Shown: positions 2,219 to 60,524 of the stretch, piece by piece
Layout of the letters: each line of letters opens with the position of its first letter
Numbering within the stretch: the first letter of the stretch is position 1
Sequence record: PZ386976.1
Strand: one strand, 5' to 3'
Source of the DNA: a phage
Length of the DNA stretch: 64,000 nucleotides
Notes under the pieces: generated by a model
The model's input: the letters and a program-made list of their open reading frames with translations, nothing else
What the model was told of the DNA's origin: nothing
Databases searched by the model: none
Made by a program: the position numbers and the translations under genes

Positions 2219-2824
<606 letters not shown>

Positions 2825-3225
2825 TTAGTTGATTGTTAAGTTGTTTGTAAAGAACCCTCAACAGAAGACTCTTTAGAAACTTGGTAGATTTTTAACGTGG
2901 CTACTACCATCCACCCATACCTCACATCACCATACCATACCATACCTGACCGGACCTAACCAAACTCCACAGCACCATACATCACATCACACAGCCTTAT
3001 TAAAAGACCCTGTTTAAAGACCCTTTAAAAAGGTAAGTCTCATTTTAATGTAGCTGAGACTAACTACCCATACCAAACAGCACCGCACTATGCCTTACCC
3101 CACCTCACCGAGCCTCGCCCCACATCACTTAAAAACCCTTTTCAAAGACTCTTAAGTGATGTTGGTGAGTACCCGTTGGTTTATGCTGCTCAGTATACTC
3201 ACCAAATTTTCTATGTCAACAACTT

Positions 3226-56188: not shown

Positions 56189-56560
56189 ATGAAAAACAGA
56201 ACAAACAAAGGCCAGTTTAAAAAAGGCCAGTCTGGAAACCCATCTGGAAGACCAAAAGGCTCTCGTAACAAAAGCTCACTCGTAAAAGCTCAACTGACCA
56301 TTGATAATTCTGCTGAGTTTGCTGCAAAGCTGTTTGAGGCGATTGTTACAAGGGATGCTGCTAAGCTTGCAGAGTTCGGGTTAAACACAGACGATGTAAC
56401 CATCAAGAGTATGATTGAGGTCGGTAAAACTATCATGACTCACTCAGCAGGTGAGATGAAAGCAATTGCAGCAGACACTAAGAAGACTCCTGATAATGGT
56501 GGTCAAACCCAGACAGATAACAAACCAACGTTCTCTGCTGTAGCGACTCTCAAAAAATAA
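56189..56560 (+). CDS. hypothetical protein with N-terminal Gly/Pro-rich basic motif
   Basis: FKKGQSGNPSGRPKG motif. Confidence 0.45.
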   Translation: MKNRTNKGQFKKGQSGNPSGRPKGSRNKSSLVKAQLTIDNSAEFAAKLFEAIVTRDAAKLAEFGLNTDDVTIKSMIEVGKTIMTHSAGEMKAIAADTKKTPDNGGQTQTDNKPTFSAVATLKK

Positions 56561-56641: not shown

Positions 56642-58057
56642 ATGAGCGAGTTATTTAAACATGCGCACCTTCATGCAGGTCGAACTGAAAATGGTGCTGT
56701 AAACCATACTTCATCAATGTCTGCTCTGGTAGACTTCTACAAAGCCGCTGGCTCAAGCCGTAGCAATGTAGAAATCTTACCAGACCTGTTCTACAAAGCT
56801 TTGCGTGAGGATGTTGATGTTGCAGTTCGTATTTTACTGCATATGCGAGATGTGCGAGAAGGTATGGGTGAGCGTAAAGCTTTCCGAACTGTTTTACTTC
56901 AAGCAATTGAAGACAAAGTTTTAGAGCCTACACAGGTTCTTCGCATTATGGATAAGATTGCAGAACTTGGTCGTTTTGATGACTTCAAAATCTTCGTAGG
57001 TACTCGTTTTGAGACAGATGCCTTCAAACATTTAGAAGCAGCATTACTAGACCCTGCAACAGCAGGTTTAGCAGCTAAGTGGTTACCACGAGTAAAACCA
57101 CGCCACAAACAGTTTGTAAAACGTTTCTGCAAGTTTGCAAACTTAAGTGAGAAGGAGTATCGCACACTGTTGTCTGCACTATCTGATACGGTTGAGCAAA
57201 AAATCTCTGCTAATGAGTTTGGTAAGATTGACTACAGCAAGATTCCTTCACTCGCTGCTGCACGTTACCAAAAACTCTTTAACCGTAAAGATGGAGAACG
57301 TTACAAAGCTTACATCGAATCACTCTCAAAGGGTGAGGCTAAGATTAACGCTGGTGCTGTTTACCCATACGATGTGATTAAGTCTATCAAGCATGGTAAT
57401 GCAGATGTTGCCAATGAGCAGTGGAAAGCACTACCAAACTGGATGGCAGAAGGTGAGAACATTCTGTGTATGACCGATGTTTCAAGCTCAATGTCTTGGG
57501 TGAATCTTGGTTCAATCACTGCCCTTGATATTGGTGTATCACTTGCCTTGTATGTAGCAGAACGCAATACTGGTTGTTTTAAGAATGAGTTAATGGTTTA
57601 CTCAACAAACCCTCACTTCATCGAACTGAGTGGTGATTTACGAAACCGTCATCGTCAGGTGATGCGTCATGTTGAATATGGCTCAACTAACTTACAAGCA
57701 GCTTTTGACCGTATTCTTGAGATAGGTAAAAGAAACAACTTGACTCAGAAAGATATGCCAAGTAAGCTTATCATCTTCTCCGATATGGAGTTCAATCAGG
57801 TTGATGGTGCTAACGGTCGTACAAACTTTGAAGCAATTCAGAGTAAGTACAAAAAAGCTGGATATGAGATGCCACAACTGGTATTCTGGTACTTAGCAAA
57901 CCGTAATGGCACTTGCGAAGTATCTGTTAAGGATAACGGTGTAGCAATGGTATCTGGTTTCTCTCCAGCCACTTTAAAAGCTCTGCTTGGTGGTGAGAAG
58001 TTTGACCCAATCAGCGTAATGCTCAAAGCAGTAATGATTGACCGTTATATCTGGTAA
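56642..58057 (+). CDS. vWA-domain protein with Ro60-like features (N-terminal helical domain + C-terminal vWA with MIDAS)
   Basis: MIDAS-like DVSSSM followed by LGSI..., G-S-T-N and FSDMEF elements in order expected of Ro60 vWA domain; N-terminal ~300 aa helical; a DUF2828-type assignment cannot be excluded. Confidence 0.5.
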   Translation: MSELFKHAHLHAGRTENGAVNHTSSMSALVDFYKAAGSSRSNVEILPDLFYKALREDVDVAVRILLHMRDVREGMGERKAFRTVLLQAIEDKVLEPTQVLRIMDKIAELGRFDDFKIFVGTRFETDAFKHLEAALLDPATAGLAAKWLPRVKPRHKQFVKRFCKFANLSEKEYRTLLSALSDTVEQKISANEFGKIDYSKIPSLAAARYQKLFNRKDGERYKAYIESLSKGEAKINAGAVYPYDVIKSIKHGNADVANEQWKALPNWMAEGENILCMTDVSSSMSWVNLGSITALDIGVSLALYVAERNTGCFKNELMVYSTNPHFIELSGDLRNRHRQVMRHVEYGSTNLQAAFDRILEIGKRNNLTQKDMPSKLIIFSDMEFNQVDGANGRTNFEAIQSKYKKAGYEMPQLVFWYLANRNGTCEVSVKDNGVAMVSGFSPATLKALLGGEKFDPISVMLKAVMIDRYIW

Positions 58058-58075: not shown

Positions 58076-58104
58076 TTGACAATGTGTTTGATACCCTTTA
58101 ATAT
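58076..58104 (+). promoter_or_regulatory. sigma70-like promoter upstream of tRNA cluster
   Basis: TTGACA, 17 nt, TAATAT. Confidence 0.5.
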
Positions 58105-58166
58105 GTTCTACATAGAAACGAAATGAGAGCTTTTCTAAGATACTGAAAAATATTTTAAAAAAGTTC

Positions 58167-58196
58167 TTGACAACCACTAAAAAATAATGTTAAAGT
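58167..58196 (+). promoter_or_regulatory. second sigma70-like promoter upstream of tRNA cluster
   Basis: TTGACA, 17-18 nt, TAAAGT. Confidence 0.4.
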
Positions 58197-58316: not shown

Positions 58317-58673
58317 ATGAGATTTTTAAAAGAATGTCCAGTTCATGGTTTAACTGAACATAGCATTCATAAGAATGGTAACGCCGGTAATAGAGTAAAT
58401 TGTCTAAAATGTTGTGCATTAAGGACAAAACTTAGAGAGGATGCCAATAGGGAGAAAGCATACAAGTTTTATGGCGATAGTTGCAAAATTTGTGGCTATA
58501 ATAAATGTAAAAATGCTTTAGAATGGCATCACCTTAACCCAAACGAAAAAGAGAATACACCATCAAAAATTATGGGTGCATCTTGGGAAAAGGTTAAAAA
58601 AGAACTTGATAAATGTGTTTTGCTCTGTGCTAATTGCCACAGAGAGGTTCATAGTGGAATTACAACGGTTTAA
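58317..58673 (+). CDS. HNH homing endonuclease within tRNA cluster
   Basis: Cys-rich zinc-binding elements and HNH motif EWHHLNP...LLCANCHREVH; ORF 58239.. trimmed to MRFLKE because upstream part overlaps tRNA-Pro. Confidence 0.6.
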   Translation: MRFLKECPVHGLTEHSIHKNGNAGNRVNCLKCCALRTKLREDANREKAYKFYGDSCKICGYNKCKNALEWHHLNPNEKENTPSKIMGASWEKVKKELDKCVLLCANCHREVHSGITTV

Positions 58674-58674
58674 T

Positions 58675-58749
58675 GTCGTAGAAGGCAAATGGTTAGCCAC
58701 CTGACCTTCAATCAGTTGCTCGCAGGTTCGAATCCTGTCTACGACACCA
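58675..58749 (+). tRNA. tRNA, anticodon tentative (TTC, Glu?)
   Basis: acceptor gtcgtag/ctacgac, T-arm gcagg-ttcgaat-cctgt, CCA encoded; anticodon loop ccTTCaa has atypical C33. Confidence 0.45.
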
Positions 58750-58753
58750 GTTT

Positions 58754-58832
58754 TGACAGAAGACCAATTACAGCAAACTTAATCTTATTCATCTGAAGGT
58801 AAATCGGACAAAGAAGAGATTTGGTCTGGTCA
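58754..58832 (+). ncRNA. conserved bulged-helix module 1 (outer stem tgac/gtca, 5' AGA bulge, inner stem agaccaa/ttggtct, 3' G bulge)
   Basis: one of four copies with covarying outer stems; encloses AT-rich loop. Confidence 0.35.
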
Positions 58833-58920: not shown

Positions 58921-58986
58921 TTGCAGAAGACCGTATTCAGCAACAAACTACTTTTTGCGGATAAAAGAAAAAACACGGTCTGGCAA
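58921..58986 (+). ncRNA. conserved bulged-helix module 2 (outer ttgc/gcaa, inner agaccgt/acggtct)
   Basis: same architecture as module 1 with compensatory base changes. Confidence 0.35.
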
Positions 58987-59071: not shown

Positions 59072-59140
59072 AATTTAGGAGAGAAGCGATTGCTCACCGA
59101 TTTGTAAGGTGCAAGTCCTTAGCCTGAATAGAAATTAAAT

Positions 59141-59369: not shown

Positions 59370-59451
59370 GAGCAGAAGACCAAATACAGCAAGAACGTAT
59401 GAAAATTTCAAGCCAATTTAATTTTGAAAAATTTAAAACTTGGTCTGGCTC
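59370..59451 (+). ncRNA. conserved bulged-helix module 3 (outer gagc/gctc, inner agaccaa/ttggtct)
   Basis: same architecture, compensatory outer-stem change. Confidence 0.35.
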
Positions 59452-59458
59452 AACAAAT

Positions 59459-59595
59459 TTACAGAAGACCGTTTACAGCAAAACTTAAACAATCTATTTC
59501 TCGGTAAAGAAAAGGCGAAGGTTCGATTCCTTCACTCGGCAGATGTCGAGTTGGTGTAATGGTAGCACTTAAGATGATAAACAACGGTCTGGTAA
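59459..59595 (+). ncRNA. conserved bulged-helix module 4 enclosing a circularly permuted tRNA-like domain; candidate Y-RNA-like RNA
   Basis: outer ttac/gtaa, inner agaccgt/acggtct; enclosed 59517-59568 has T-arm gaagg-ttcgatt-ccttc, 7-bp hairpin actcggc-agat-gtcgagt (acceptor-like) and D-arm-like gtg-taatggtag-cac in permuted order. Confidence 0.35.
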
Positions 59596-59736
59596 TTATC
59601 TTTGTAGATAAGTTATTAAGCTTACCTGTGAGTATGCGACCACAAAGGGTGAAAGGGTAAATTCTAGATTTAAACCCAAAAAGGCACATCGCTACAGACC
59701 TTAAGCAAGTCTGGGTAGCTTATCTACAAAGATAAT
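59595..59736 (+). ncRNA. long hairpin with perfect 18-bp stem enclosing ~106 nt
   Basis: attatctttgtagataag (59595-59612) is the exact reverse complement of cttatctacaaagataat (59719-59736); no ORF. Confidence 0.3.
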
Positions 59737-59741
59737 TTAAT

Positions 59742-59900: not shown

Positions 59901-59975
59901 TGTGGGTTAGCATAAATGGTAATGCAAACGGCTGATAACCGTTAGAAGAGGGTTCGATACCCTCACCTACAACCA
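59901..59975 (+). tRNA. tRNA-Ile: tRNA-Ile (anticodon GAT)
   Basis: acceptor tgtgggt/acctaca, D-arm gcat-aaatggta-atgc, anticodon arm aacgg-ctGATaa-ccgtt, T-arm gaggg-ttcgata-ccctc, CCA. Confidence 0.7.
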
Positions 59976-59990
59976 ATTTCAATAAAGTTG

Positions 59991-60019
59991 TTGACATTGA
60001 GATGTGACTACTTTATAGT
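59991..60019 (+). promoter_or_regulatory. sigma70-like promoter inside tRNA cluster
   Basis: TTGACA, 17 nt, TATAGT; followed by ~200 nt ORF-free region before next tRNA. Confidence 0.5.
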
Positions 60020-60222
60020 AACCTTAGTTTTCGTTGCGTAGCGTCTATTTTGCAAATTTAAAATAAATGCAAACGACAATGTTTTTCTGGCAGTAGCTTG
60101 ATAGGCTAAACACCAGTGAGGTCTTCCAATCCCTCATCAAAGAATTTGGCGTACTAGCCCACGGTATGATTAATAAGGTGGGCATCTTTAAGTGCTTTCT
60201 GAGAGAGTCTTTAAAGATTAAT

Positions 60223-60441: not shown

Positions 60442-60524
60442 ATGGGACGATGTTAAGACTCTAAGGCATGAGCAACGGCCTCCAAAACCGTTTCAAAGGG
60501 GTTCAACTCCTCCGTCCCATGCCA
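60442..60524 (+). tRNA. tRNA-like gene with oversized D region (possible anticodon CCA, Trp?)
   Basis: acceptor atgggac/gtcccat perfect, T-arm agggg-ttcaact-cctcc, CCA; candidate anticodon loop ctCCAaa; D region ~7 nt too long. Confidence 0.35.

What the first reader, a model, noticed from the sequence alone, without database searches (positions are those of the whole stretch)
59517..59568. Circularly permuted tRNA-like domain inside module 4
The segment has a canonical T-arm (gaagg-ttcgatt-ccttc) followed directly by a 7-bp hairpin (actcggc-agat-gtcgagt) that looks like an acceptor stem closed by a tetraloop, then a D-arm-like hairpin (gtg-taatggtag-cac). That is the order T-arm, acceptor, D-arm, with the enclosing bulged helix where an anticodon stem would be. 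This is not a normal tRNA gene and matches the tRNA-mimic domain described for bacterial Y-RNA-like RNAs.
Basis: partly seen in the sequence, partly recalled or inferred. Interest (0 to 1): 0.8.

Follow-up and report, generated by a model that had tools for sequence, protein, structure and literature searches.

The report
Phage Y-RNA with permuted tRNA domain
This stretch is the tRNA-shaped core of a small non-coding RNA that a Felix O1-like phage encodes just downstream of a Ro60-like protein gene; it belongs to a large, unannotated phage family of Y-RNA-like molecules whose presumed protein-binding signature also occurs in the "Class I" RNAs of social amoebae.

Summary
Confirmed. Window 59517-59568 holds, in order, a canonical T arm (GAAGG-UUCGAUU-CCUUC), a 7-bp acceptor-like hairpin closed by AGAU, U8-G9, and a D arm (GUGU-AAUGGUA-GCAC).

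This is the core of a 137-nt module, M4 (59459-59595), closed by a bulged helix. M4 is one of four tandem modules interleaved with tRNA genes. They lie 0.7-1.5 kb downstream of a 471-aa protein whose predicted fold is Ro60 (helical ring + vWA; Pfam DUF2828, not TROVE).

The helices are kept through compensatory changes in three Ounavirinae genera. A covariance model built only from those genera finds the same design beside DUF2828 genes in unrelated phages.

So it is a YrlA-type Y RNA (a circularly permuted tRNA mimic), but a divergent one:
- Rfam YrlA does not detect it.
- The presumed protein-binding part is not GNCGAA. It is a helix followed by UUACAGCAA and closed by ...CUG, the signature of Dictyostelium Class I RNAs.

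Expression, protein binding and function are untested. The orthologous protein (Bas63 gp130) counters the ppl defence, and does so without these RNAs.

Verdict: new variant of a known kind. No feature is annotated under it in most of about 250 phage genomes.

The parts
56642..58057 (+). Gene for a 471-aa Ro60-like protein: N-terminal helical repeat (Pfam DUF2828) plus a C-terminal vWA domain with a MIDAS motif (DxSxS). Orthologue of Bas63 gp130.
   Evidence: - Pfam DUF2828 + DUF7788/VWA; no TROVE match.
- PHROG 850 'RNA-binding protein'.
- AlphaFold2 model pLDDT 88.5, pTM 0.88.
- The top ten Foldseek PDB hits are all Ro60 structures, aligned full length, E 7e-9 to 1e-6.
- D279, S281 and S283 are invariant across the family alignment.
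- bas63_0130 sits at the same position in Bas63.
58076..58196 (+). Two sigma70-like promoters (58076-58104 and 58167-58196) in front of tRNA-Pro. They are the likely start of the transcript that carries M1-M4 and nine tRNAs.
   Evidence: Consensus scan, 10 of 12 matches each. The next + strand promoter is at 59991, and no + strand terminator lies between them. The transcription unit is an inference.
58754..58832 (+). Module M1, a simple hairpin: UGAC / AGA / AGACCAA-UUACAGCAA ... UUGGUCU / G / GUCA.
   Evidence: Sequence. R2 37.7 bits, E 2e-6. R1 46.2 bits. Conserved in eight Ounavirinae loci. Rfam Dicty_Class_I_RNA 19.7 bits.
58921..58986 (+). Module M2, a simple hairpin with basal helix UUGC/GCAA.
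   Evidence: R2 44.5 bits, E 3e-8. R1 43.2 bits. The basal helix changes G-C to A-U (UUAC/GUAA) in Mooglevirus. Rfam Dicty_Class_I_RNA 21.4 bits.
59370..59451 (+). Module M3, a simple hairpin with basal helix GAGC/GCUC. It lies 7 nt upstream of M4.
   Evidence: R2 29.4 bits, E 3e-4. Conserved in Ounavirinae.
59459..59595 (+). Module M4, the whole RNA: the closing helices and UACAGCAA motif enclosing the tRNA-like domain.
   Evidence: MFE fold. RNAalifold on 13 orthologues. R1 160 bits. 253 phage records hold it, and no feature is annotated under the match in most of the records listed.
59466..59481 (+). 5' strand of helix P2 (AGACCGUU) followed by the conserved single-stranded UACAGCAA. This is the presumed binding site for the Ro60-like protein.
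   Evidence: - Invariant in 13 orthologues.
- The same helix + [A/U]CAGCAA + 3' G pattern occurs 46 times on the gene strand against once on the other strand in 72 unrelated DUF2828 loci.
- Protein binding is inferred, not shown.
59497..59512 (+). Hairpin UUUCU-CGGUAA-AGAAA, in the position of an anticodon or variable arm, followed by AGGC.
   Evidence: MFE folds. The loop is 7 nt in most orthologues (CUGGUAA, CCGGUAA, CUUAUAA) but 6 nt here. ARAGORN reads it as the anticodon arm after the sequence is put back in tRNA order.
59517..59533 (+). T arm: GAAGG-UUCGAUU-CCUUC.
   Evidence: Sequence. 5 bp kept in all orthologues; one of the 13 has a single mismatch. It covaries across distant phages (helix 3).
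59534..59551 (+). Acceptor-stem-like hairpin: ACUCGGC-AGAU-GUCGAGU, 7 bp, closed, with no free CCA end.
   Evidence: Three sequence variants exist with compensatory changes: ACACGU-UACG-GCGUGU in Suspvirus and some Mooglevirus, and ACCCUUC-GCCAAACA-GAAGGGU in Moogle and HP1. All 7 pairs covary in distant phages (helix 4).
59552..59568 (+). U8-G9 linker and D arm: GUGU-AAUGGUA-GCAC.
   Evidence: Sequence. Invariant stem in Ounavirinae. 3 of 4 pairs covary in distant phages (helix 5).
59583..59595 (+). 3' strand of P2 (AACGGUCU), the unpaired G, and the 3' strand of basal helix P1 (GUAA).
   Evidence: The G that follows the helix is invariant in 32 aligned modules from diverse phages, although those modules were selected for that G.

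Best explanation
M4 is a phage-encoded Y RNA of the YrlA type. It has two parts:
- **A protein-binding part**, shared with its three simpler neighbours M1-M3: a closing helix, the single-stranded UACAGCAA motif, and a 3' G.
- **An effector part**: a circularly permuted tRNA mimic made of an anticodon/variable-like hairpin, a T arm, a closed 7-bp acceptor stem and a D arm.

Proposed mechanism, with each step marked as shown or inferred:
1. The four modules are transcribed with the flanking tRNAs from the two promoters at 58076-58196 (inferred).
2. They are released when RNase P and 3' processing enzymes cut out the tRNAs (inferred).
3. The Ro60-like 471-aa protein encoded just upstream binds the helix/CAGCAA element (inferred from co-occurrence across unrelated phages).
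4. The tRNA-shaped domain folds into an L-shape, is stabilised like a tRNA, and presents a tRNA elbow and acceptor to a tRNA-binding host or phage factor. The RNA would thus tether that factor to the Ro60-like ring, as Y RNA tethers PNPase to Rsr (by analogy with Deinococcus and Salmonella).
5. The particle then adjusts RNA metabolism or counters host defence during infection.

Shown here: the structure, its conservation and covariation, the Ro60 fold of the neighbouring protein, and the genomic association.
For: **Structure and conservation**
- All five helices are predicted independently by the MFE fold and by RNAalifold on 13 orthologues, with three covarying acceptor pairs.
- On 30 matches aligned to the model, 96.9% of cells pair against 65.9% in shuffles. 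24 of 27 pairs show double changes. The covariation score is 0.51, against at most 0.07 when partners are slid.

**tRNA likeness**
- T54-U55-C56-R57-A58, U8, A14, G18, G19 and A21 are all present (sequence).
- The 7-bp acceptor stem plus 5-bp T stem matches tRNA geometry.
- After I cut and rejoin the sequence into normal tRNA order, ARAGORN calls a cloverleaf in 6 of 6 orthologues.

**Partner protein**
- AlphaFold2 model pLDDT 88.5.
- The ten best PDB matches are all Ro60: phage phiLo, Xenopus, human and Deinococcus.

**Association beyond this phage group**
- Model R1, built only from Ounavirinae, finds modules in distant viral contigs, for example L092 at 59 bits, L032 at 58 bits and L007 at 39 bits. 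40 of 41 hits with E<=1 are on the strand of the DUF2828 gene.
- A strict pattern gives 46 hits on the gene strand against 1 on the opposite strand, and 42 of the 46 lie within 1 kb of the gene.
- Model R2 gives 70 hits, all on the gene strand, with 41 of 72 loci at E<0.01. In the 64-kb window it hits only M1-M3.
- Arrays also occur beside the gene where tRNAs are few or absent: none in the LilDestine locus, one 2.6 kb upstream in Kingsolomon, and a single tRNA-Met just upstream in Campylobacter phage F365.

**Link to YrlA**
- Rfam YrlA scores 37.9 bits on the Kingsolomon module and 38.2 bits on L032, aligning the T, acceptor and D arms.

**Literature**
- Bas63 gp130, the orthologue, is Ro60-like and counters the ppl defence. 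The authors guessed that Y RNAs hide among the tRNA genes (PMC11482910).
- In Listeria phage CKA15 the homologous protein lies within 2 kb downstream of three very highly transcribed unannotated regions, and the authors suspected these were Y RNAs (PMC12282133).
- A related Listeria phage carries three modules directly upstream of its gene.
Against: - There is no direct evidence here for transcription, RNA ends, protein binding or nucleotide modification.
- gp130 alone, expressed from a plasmid or from the T7 genome without these RNAs, restores plaquing on the ppl strain (PMC11482910). That activity therefore does not need the phage modules.
- Rfam YrlA gives no hit on the window copy.
- YrlA's 5' GNCGAA motif is absent from the closing stem. 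The only GGCGAAG (59514-20) sits at the T-stem junction and is not conserved: some orthologues have GGAGAAG.
- About 40% of DUF2828 loci showed no module within 3 kb with my models.
- The main covariation count comes from an alignment fitted to the model, which leans towards the structure.
- The R2 training set was selected for stems and for CAGCAA, so its 100% pairing is partly circular.
- MFE z-scores are modest, from -0.6 to -2.8.
Confidence: 0.7

Rival explanations
1. It is a dead remnant: the junction of two tandem tRNA genes (3' half of one, 5' half of the next), or a tRNA pseudogene left by recombination or homing-endonuclease activity in the tRNA cluster, with no function of its own.
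For: - HNH endonuclease genes are inserted in this tRNA cluster.
- In Moogle and HP1 the acceptor loop reads G-CCA-AACA, exactly like a tRNA 3' end plus a short spacer.
- Wang 2018 proposes that YrlA RNAs arose from dimeric tRNA transcripts, so this may be the origin of the element.
Against: - Three acceptor-stem variants keep pairing through fully compensatory changes.
- The T and D loops are almost invariant across three genera, with single-base variants only, while the surrounding spacers diverge.
- The domain always sits inside the same conserved closing helix and motif.
- The same design recurs beside the same protein family in unrelated phages, with different sequences.
Confidence: 0.05
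2. It is a true circularly permuted tRNA gene, as in Cyanidioschyzon. The transcript would be circularised through the closing helix, for example by an RtcB-type ligase. It would then be opened at the acceptor loop by RNase P/Z to give a working, chargeable tRNA.
For: - All four arms are present, and the sequence put back in tRNA order passes ARAGORN.
- Several relatives have N-CCA immediately after the 7-bp acceptor strand: Moogle, L032 2388 and 2762, L057 and L092 5449.
- M. smegmatis YrlA is cut by RNase P and receives CCA (PMC4201824).
- An RtcB gene lies near the module array in a Listeria phage.
Against: - The anticodon-like loop is 6 nt in the window.
- Its 'anticodon' differs among close relatives (GGU, UAU, AUA, UUC), which does not fit a decoding role.
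- The window acceptor loop is AGAU, with no CCA.
- About 35 nt on the 5' side and 14 nt on the 3' side, including the conserved motif, separate the closing helix from the tRNA core.
- No bacterial circularisation pathway for this is known (Wang 2018).
Confidence: 0.05
3. The modules, including the tRNA-like one, are processing or stability signals for the polycistronic tRNA transcript, or decoys that soak up host tRNA-targeting nucleases or toxins. They would act independently of the Ro60-like protein.
For: - The modules sit 4-9 nt from the flanking tRNA genes.
- tRNA-like structures are used as RNase P/Z processing signals elsewhere (established knowledge, e.g. mascRNA).
- gp130 works without the RNAs against ppl, so protein and RNAs could have separable roles.
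Against: - Arrays follow the DUF2828 gene even where there is no tRNA cluster: Kingsolomon, LilDestine and Campylobacter phage F365.
- The element conserved across phages is the helix/CAGCAA part, not the distance to the tRNAs.
- The simple modules contain no tRNA-like fold that RNase P could use.
Confidence: 0.15
4. It is the acceptor piece of a two-piece (permuted) tmRNA, working with the tmRNA-like tag template that lies 500 nt downstream.
For: - A reading frame ANDNVFLAVA** resembling the SsrA tag lies at 60069-60104.
- There are weak Rfam tmRNA and tmRNA_permuted hits at 59918-60222.
- In permuted tmRNA genes the T arm and 3' acceptor strand precede the 5' acceptor strand.
Against: - ARAGORN, which detects permuted tmRNAs, finds none.
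- The Rfam tmRNA_permuted hit does not include M4.
- Three tRNA genes and a promoter lie between M4 and the tag frame.
- The M4 acceptor is closed and lacks CCA in this phage.
Confidence: 0.03

Closest known systems
YrlA (Y RNA-like A; Rfam RF02553) of Salmonella, Mycobacterium and TROVE-encoding phages
   Same: - Encoded on the same strand within about 1.5 kb of a Ro60-fold protein gene.
- The 5' and 3' ends pair to form the protein-binding stem.
- The effector domain is a circularly permuted tRNA mimic in the order V hairpin, T arm, closed acceptor stem, U-N linker, D arm.
- It is accompanied by simpler hairpin Y RNAs, comparable to YrlB and Yrn2.
- It can be co-transcribed with tRNAs, as in Deinococcus (Yrn2-tRNA-Yrn1).
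   Different: - No Rfam YrlA hit for the window copy; distant relatives reach only 38 of the 69 bits required.
- The T and D stems are GAAGG/CCUUC and GUGU/GCAC, not the near-invariant GCGGG/CCCGC and GCUC/GAGC.
- There is no 5' GNCGAA(N)G motif. Instead there is a helix, then (U)UACAGCAA, then a 3' G.
- The partner protein matches Pfam DUF2828, not TROVE.
- Four modules sit in tandem inside a tRNA cluster.
Class I RNAs of dictyostelid social amoebae (Rfam RF01414)
   Same: - A terminal 6-7-bp helix joins the two ends and begins with G.
- It is followed immediately by an unpaired (C)CUUACAGCAA; M4 has GUUUACAGCAA and other phages have CCUUACAGCAA.
- A variable, A-rich and G-poor middle follows (A 0.46, G 0.07-0.09 in both groups).
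- The 3' strand is followed by UG.
- Genes are clustered.
- Positions I did not select on agree: -3 U, -2 U, -1 A, and no G at +1 to +5.
   Different: - Scores are 18-21 bits, below the gathering score of 41.5.
- Class I RNAs are eukaryotic and are transcribed from a DUSE promoter.
- They are reported as unique to Dictyostelia and as binding the RRM protein Rnp1A/CIBP.
- No tRNA-like insert is known in them.
- Whether Dictyostelium has a DUF2828 protein that binds them could not be tested here.
Canonical Y RNAs (metazoan Y1-Y5; Deinococcus Yrn1/Yrn2) with Ro60/Rsr
   Same: - A modular RNA: a terminal bulged helix for the ring protein plus a variable effector loop.
- Several paralogous RNAs serve one protein.
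- The protein is a helical ring plus a vWA domain with a MIDAS motif.
   Different: The conserved GGUCCGA / bulged-C helix is absent. A GGUCU sequence sits on the 3' strand here. Protein sequence identity to Ro60 is only 11-16%.
Circularly permuted tRNA genes (Cyanidioschyzon merolae and others)
   Same: The gene order is 3' half before 5' half, with the acceptor stem initially a closed loop. All four arms are recognisable after the sequence is put back in tRNA order.
   Different: The anticodon is not conserved. There are long extra segments carrying a conserved protein-binding motif. No circularisation machinery is known in the host.

Membership tests
YrlA (Rfam RF02553) | Scores at or above the family's gathering score (69 bits) on the Rfam covariance model | tested here: not met
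   There is no hit on 59459-59595 even at E<=10, and none at the gathering score in eight related loci. Distant relatives score 37.9 bits (L006) and 38.2 bits (L032).
YrlA (Rfam RF02553) | Effector domain with a T arm, closed acceptor-like stem and D arm in that order, preceded by a V hairpin | tested here: met
   Sequence; MFE fold; RNAalifold; covariation; ARAGORN on the sequence put back in tRNA order.
YrlA (Rfam RF02553) | GNCGAAN0-1G motif near the 5' end (the presumed Ro60 contact) | tested here: not met
   The 5' strand reads UUACAGAAGACCGUUUACAGCAA. The only GGCGAAG is at 59514-20 beside the T stem and varies among orthologues (GGAGAAG).
YrlA (Rfam RF02553) | Nearly invariant T-stem and D-stem sequences (GCGGG/CCCGC and GCUC/GAGC) | tested here: not met
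   The window has GAAGG/CCUUC and GUGU/GCAC. The mycobacteriophage relatives do carry the YrlA-type stems.
YrlA (Rfam RF02553) | Encoded within 4 kb of a Ro60 orthologue, on the same strand | tested here: met
   The gene at 56642-58057 (+) ends 1.4 kb upstream of M4. It has a Ro60 fold by Foldseek. It is not TROVE by Pfam.
YrlA (Rfam RF02553) | Bound by Rsr/Ro60; carries pseudouridine-55 and dihydrouridine made by TruB and DusA | not testable with these tools
   This needs immunoprecipitation and modification mapping.
Dictyostelid Class I RNA (Rfam RF01414) | Scores at or above the gathering score (41.5 bits) | tested here: not met
   M2 scores 21.4 bits and M1 19.7 bits. Three modules of L032 score 18.3-20.5 bits. 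RF01414 is nevertheless the best family for M1, M2 and two of the three L032 modules (the third is overlapped by a slightly higher GAIT hit), out of six simple modules scanned; M3 got no hit.
Dictyostelid Class I RNA (Rfam RF01414) | Short terminal stem starting with G, an 11-nt motif CCUUACAGCAA next to its 5' strand, and a 3' CUG(U) | tested here: met
   - M4: GACCGU-UUACAGCAA ... ACGGUC-UG.
- M1: GACCAA-UUACAGCAA ... UUGGUC-UG.
- Other phages have an exact CCUUACAGCAA (L041, L046).
- Compared with real Class I sequences.
Dictyostelid Class I RNA (Rfam RF01414) | Upstream DUSE promoter element in a dictyostelid genome; binds Rnp1A/CIBP | tested here: not met
   This is a phage genome with sigma70-type promoters. 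Protein binding is not testable here.
Ro60 / TROVE proteins (for the neighbouring gene) | Ring of alpha-helical repeats closed by a vWA domain with a MIDAS motif | tested here: met
   The AlphaFold2 model has helices over residues 1-265 and an alpha/beta domain over 274-448. The best ten PDB matches are Ro60 structures, TM 0.47-0.64. D279-x-S281-x-S283 is invariant.
Ro60 / TROVE proteins (for the neighbouring gene) | Matches Pfam TROVE (PF05731), or matches Ro60 by sequence | tested here: not met
   Pfam gives DUF2828 + DUF7788 only. Neither phmmer nor a profile search against PDB sequences finds Ro60.
Functional circularly permuted tRNA gene | Canonical 7-nt anticodon loop with a conserved anticodon | tested here: not met
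   The window loop is 6 nt (CGGUAA). Orthologues read GGU, UAU, AUA or UUC.

The most novel reading that the evidence does not exclude
The helix + UUACAGCAA + ...CUG element may be the cognate RNA signature of the whole DUF2828 branch of Ro60-like proteins. This branch has 8,776 clusters at 50% identity. It spans phages of at least four bacterial phyla and, according to one paper, mimivirus-like proteins. If so, the abundant Class I RNAs of Dictyostelium, so far regarded as unique to social amoebae and of unknown mechanism, would be the same kind of RNA: Y-RNA-like partners of a DUF2828-type protein. One candidate is the uncharacterised pull-down protein DDB_G0281243. M1-M4 would then be the first prokaryotic-virus members of that class, with M4 showing that the class can carry a tRNA-mimic effector.
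Probability: 0.3. Interest if true: 0.9.

Novelty: new variant of a known kind. Interest (0 to 1): 0.7.

Why it matters
**For phage biology**
- It locates the RNAs that two recent studies could only guess at: Bas63 gp130, an anti-defence protein, and the Rsr-like protein of Listeria phage CKA15.
- It turns 'some tRNA genes may be Y RNAs' into four defined, testable molecules that lie between the tRNA genes.
- Felix O1-like phages are used in diagnostics and therapy. In about 250 of their genomes this region mostly has no feature annotated under it, or carries short ORFs that are probably spurious.

**For RNA biology**
- It extends Y RNAs to a second, much larger branch of Ro60-like proteins, with 8,776 clusters at 50% identity.
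- This branch uses a different recognition element.
- It shows several independent ways of building a tRNA mimic on one scaffold: T-acceptor-D, T-D without an acceptor, and normal D-anticodon-T with the scaffold stem acting as the acceptor.

**If the Class I link holds**
- A long-standing orphan RNA class of Dictyostelium would gain a candidate protein partner and a mechanism.

Tried and rejected
**Searches that found nothing**
- Rfam at the gathering score on the window and on ten related loci gave only tRNAs.
- The protein against PDB sequences, as a single sequence and as a profile, found nothing. Only a comparison of folds found Ro60 (then 63).

**Technical failures**
I replaced it with a short stem-and-motif model, R2.
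- The AlphaFold-database fold search, meant to look for a Dictyostelium DUF2828 protein, was unavailable.

**Literature dead ends**
- Searches for DUF2828/PF11443 and DDB_G0281243 gave no functional information.
- The Sim et al. 2020 review is not held, nor are the supplementary tables of Chen 2014. The published list of 22 phages could therefore only be inferred from a later paper: mycobacteriophages, CcrColossus and Bacillus phage G.

**Ideas considered and dropped**
- The reverse pairing, with GGUCUGG of one module pairing with CAGAAGACC of the next and so enclosing a tRNA. I dropped it because each module's own basal 4-bp helix covaries with its own 3' end (UGAC/GUCA, UUGC/GCAA, GAGC/GCUC, UUAC/GUAA).
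- A helix P3 in the anticodon-stem position (CUUA/UAAG or AUCU/AGAU). It is not supported across orthologues and is left open.
- The Class I candidates outside Dictyostelia in Kjellin's Table S4, for example an Arabidopsis candidate at 40 bits. They look like genome-size noise, so I did not use them.
Full report
**Observation.**

The window is a Felix O1-like phage (Felixounavirus), 95-97% identical to Salmonella phage Meda, Escherichia phages nataliec and JH2, and others. The finding lies in a cluster of 26 tRNA genes on the + strand: 25 called by ARAGORN, plus a tRNA-Glu seen only by Rfam.

- T arm GAAGG-UUCGAUU-CCUUC, 59517-59533.
- A 7-bp hairpin ACUCGGC-AGAU-GUCGAGU, 59534-59551.
- U-G, 59552-59553.
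- D arm GUGU-AAUGGUA-GCAC, 59554-59568.

The nucleotides that hold a tRNA together are in place: U8, A14, G18, G19, A21 and U54-U55-C56-G57-A58. Neither ARAGORN nor the Rfam tRNA model calls a gene here. The T-loop pattern is expected 0.13 times per window and is found 25 times; 23 of these are in tRNA genes and one is this site.

**Anatomy of the whole element.**

The domain is the centre of a 137-nt module, M4 (59459-59595). Read 5' to 3' it has:
- basal helix UUAC/GUAA;
- internal loop AGA opposite G;
- helix AGACCGUU/AACGGUCU;
- single-stranded UACAGCAA;
- a spacer;
- a 5-bp hairpin with a 6-nt loop, then AGGC;
- the T arm, acceptor-like hairpin and D arm;
- a spacer back to the helix.

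Three simpler modules share the same closing part and motif but have only an A/U-rich apical hairpin: M1 58754-58832, M2 58921-58986 and M3 59370-59451.

The basal 4-bp helix differs between modules yet always pairs: UGAC/GUCA, UUGC/GCAA, GAGC/GCUC and UUAC/GUAA.

The modules sit 4-9 nt from the neighbouring tRNA genes. M3 and M4 are 7 nt apart. Two strong sigma70-like promoters precede tRNA-Pro, and no + strand terminator or promoter follows until 59991. Co-transcription with the tRNAs, and release by tRNA processing, is therefore the simplest reading. This is inferred, not shown.

**Conservation.**

M4 is present in 253 phage records, and in most of the records listed no feature is annotated under the match. 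All four modules are kept in Felixounavirus, Suspvirus and Mooglevirus.

Thirteen distinct M4 sequences give the same five helices with RNAalifold. The acceptor-like stem exists in three versions that differ by fully compensatory changes:
- ACUCGGC/GUCGAGU;
- ACACGU/GCGUGU, with a UACG loop;
- ACCCUUC/GAAGGGU, with the loop GCCAAACA. This loop contains a discriminator base plus CCA, exactly as at a tRNA 3' end.

**The neighbouring protein.**

- The 471-aa ORF at 56642-58057 matches Pfam DUF2828 plus a vWA domain, not TROVE. It also matches PHROG 850, 'RNA-binding protein'.
- Sequence and profile searches of PDB find nothing.
- An AlphaFold2 model (pLDDT 88.5, pTM 0.88) has Ro60 structures as its ten best matches, all over the full length: Thermus phage phiLo, Xenopus, human and Deinococcus Rsr, E 7e-9 to 1e-6. 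The MIDAS residues are invariant.
- The family is large: 710 phage records and 8,776 clusters at 50% identity.

**The same RNA design next to the same protein in unrelated phages.**

[A/U]CAGCAA preceded by a helix strand recurs two or three times in the gap next to the DUF2828 gene in:
- mycobacteriophages Kingsolomon and LilDestine;
- a Listeria P100-like phage;
- Campylobacter phage F365.

Single copies occur in a Vibrio phage and a Yersinia phage.

Statistical support:
- A strict pattern (5' A, helix of at least 7 bp, 1-3 nt, CAGCAA, 3' G) gives 46 hits on the gene strand against 1 on the other strand in 72 loci outside Ounavirinae. 42 of the 46 lie within 1 kb of the gene.
- Model R1, built only from Ounavirinae M4, finds full-length matches in distant viral contigs, for example 59 and 58 bits. 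40 of 41 hits are on the gene strand.
- On 30 such matches, 96.9% of cells pair (65.9% in shuffles) and 24 of 27 pairs show double changes. The caveat is that this alignment was fitted to the model.
- A short model of the stem and motif (R2) gives 70 hits, all on the gene strand. In the 64-kb window it hits only M1-M3. Its training set was selected for stems, so one search is not an independent test.

**How tRNA-like is it?**

When I cut the M4 sequence at the acceptor loop and rejoin it in normal tRNA order, ARAGORN calls a complete cloverleaf in all six orthologues. The 'anticodon' is not conserved, and the window loop has 6 nt. It is therefore a mimic, not a decoder.

Longer modules in other phages show several designs:
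- T-acceptor-D, several with N-CCA in the acceptor loop;
- T-D without an acceptor stem;
- normal D-anticodon-T order, with the module stem in place of the acceptor stem;
- inserts that are not tRNA-like.

**Comparison with what is known.**

The layout equals YrlA (PMC4201824; 10.1101/312249). Relatives score 38 bits on Rfam YrlA through their T, acceptor and D arms. The window copy is not detected, and it lacks both the GNCGAA motif and YrlA's invariant stem sequences.

The closing part resembles the Class I RNAs of Dictyostelia instead:
- Rfam RF01414 is the best family for M1, M2 and two of the three L032 modules (the third is overlapped by a slightly higher GAIT hit), out of six simple modules scanned. 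The scores are 18-21 bits, below the threshold of 41.5.
- The published definition is a terminal stem starting with G, CCUUACAGCAA next to it, a variable middle and a 3' CUGU (PMC7919456). The phage modules fit it.
- Real Class I sequences share nucleotide preferences with the phage modules at positions I did not select on. They also share a nearly identical A-rich, G-poor middle.
- No paper in the library links Class I RNAs to Ro60.
- I could not test whether Dictyostelium has a DUF2828 protein.

**Function.**

- In Bas63, a Felixounavirus, the orthologous gene 130 counters the ppl defence. The authors noted the Ro60 fold and guessed that some tRNA genes might be Y RNAs (PMC11482910). The RNAs identified here lie between the tRNA genes, not in them.
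- gp130 alone rescues T7 on ppl, so that activity does not need the modules.
- In Listeria phage CKA15 the homologous protein is found in virions. It lies within 2 kb downstream of three very highly transcribed unannotated regions that the authors suspected were Y RNAs (PMC12282133). A related Listeria phage has three modules directly upstream of its gene.
- My best reading is a Ro60-like particle whose RNA subunits come in several flavours, with M4 offering a tRNA-shaped handle for a tRNA-binding factor. Confidence is about 0.7 that it is a Ro60-partner Y RNA, and about 0.9 that it is a real structured RNA.

**Rival explanations.**

- *A recombination scar of two tRNA halves.* This may describe the origin. 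It does not fit the compensatory changes or the recurrence in unrelated phages.
- *A functional permuted tRNA.* This is made unlikely by the unconserved, 6-nt anticodon-like loop.
- *A pure processing signal or decoy.* This does not explain arrays beside the gene in phages that lack tRNA clusters.
- *A two-piece tmRNA.* ARAGORN and Rfam do not support it at this site.

**Verdict.**

The element is a new variant of a known kind: a YrlA-like tRNA mimic on a different, Class I-like scaffold, paired with a DUF2828-type Ro60-like protein. It is widespread in phages and not annotated.

Noticed in passing
window 59594-59741: Another conserved structured RNA of about 145 nt lies between M4 and tRNA-Lys. 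Its MFE is -47.9 kcal/mol with z = -5.4. A roughly 24-bp closing stem is kept in six Ounavirinae, and 12 pairs show compensatory changes. It contains the hairpin CUAC-AGACC-UUAAGCAA-GUCUGG-GUAG (about 59692-59718), which looks like a collapsed copy of the module motif. No Rfam match.
   Followed up: partly
window 59991-60222: A region with its own sigma70-like promoter (59991-60019) contains the frame GCA AAC GAC AAU GUU UUU CUG GCA GUA GCU UGA UAG = ANDNVFLAVA** (60069-60104). This is close to the E. coli SsrA tag ANDENYALAA. Rfam tmRNA scores 14 bits and tmRNA_permuted 32.5 bits (threshold 47). ARAGORN finds no tmRNA. It may be a tmRNA-derived or tmRNA-mimicking RNA without a recognisable tRNA-like domain.
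   Followed up: partly
window 60444-60524: A tRNA-like element not called by ARAGORN. It has acceptor pairing (UGGGACG/CGUCCCA), a 3' GCCA, the T loop GGUUCAACUCC and an over-long (about 9-nt) anticodon-like loop CCUCCAAAA. The Rfam tRNA-Sec model scores only 23 bits.
   Followed up: no
window 58675-58746: A tRNA (anticodon loop reads UUC, Glu) is found by Rfam at 55.4 bits but missed by ARAGORN. The cluster therefore has at least 26 tRNA genes.
   Followed up: no
window 58317-58673: An HNH endonuclease ORF is inserted between tRNA-Pro and tRNA-Glu. SUSP2, Moogle, Sf16 and Bas63 have the two tRNAs adjacent. Other relatives carry HNH genes elsewhere in the cluster.
   Followed up: no
window 59072-59140: The 70-nt spacer between tRNA-Asn and tRNA-Tyr contains a T-arm-like hairpin AAGG-UGCAAGU-CCUU. 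It is conserved in SUSP2 and Sf16 and absent in Moogle. It may be a tRNA remnant or another small RNA.
   Followed up: no
L008 (Listeria phage vB_Liva_VAfA18) 2427-2978 and 6700-8019: A ROOL-like RNA (89.8 bits; gathering score 99.1) lies just upstream of the three modules and the DUF2828 gene. An RtcB-type 'tRNA splicing ligase' gene lies 1.2 kb downstream. ROOL may account for one of the 'highly transcribed regions' reported for phage CKA15.
   Followed up: no
L091 6710-7201: A complete tmRNA gene (87 bits, above threshold) lies 2.3 kb downstream of the DUF2828 gene and its two modules in an uncultivated viral contig.
   Followed up: no
L095 (Bas63 / JohannRWettstein) 2771-3045: Two short minus-strand 'hypothetical protein' CDS (bas63_0137 and bas63_0138) are annotated over the M3-M4 region and the structured RNA that follows. 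They are probably spurious calls over non-coding RNA genes.
   Followed up: no
simple modules in many loci, e.g. L046 4561-4624, L088 2833-2895, L058 4421-4483: The apical, single-stranded parts of the simple modules often contain one or two further AGCAA copies (e.g. ...ACAGCAA ACGAUAC AAGCAA UUAUAAACUAC GCAAAC...). This suggests more than one binding site per RNA.
   Followed up: no
window 56189-56560: A 123-aa DUF5681 protein gene immediately precedes the Ro60-like gene. It holds the same position in SUSP2, Moogle, Sf16 and Bas63, and a similarly sized ORF (not scanned) sits there in Yersinia phage P778. It may be a conserved partner.
   Followed up: no
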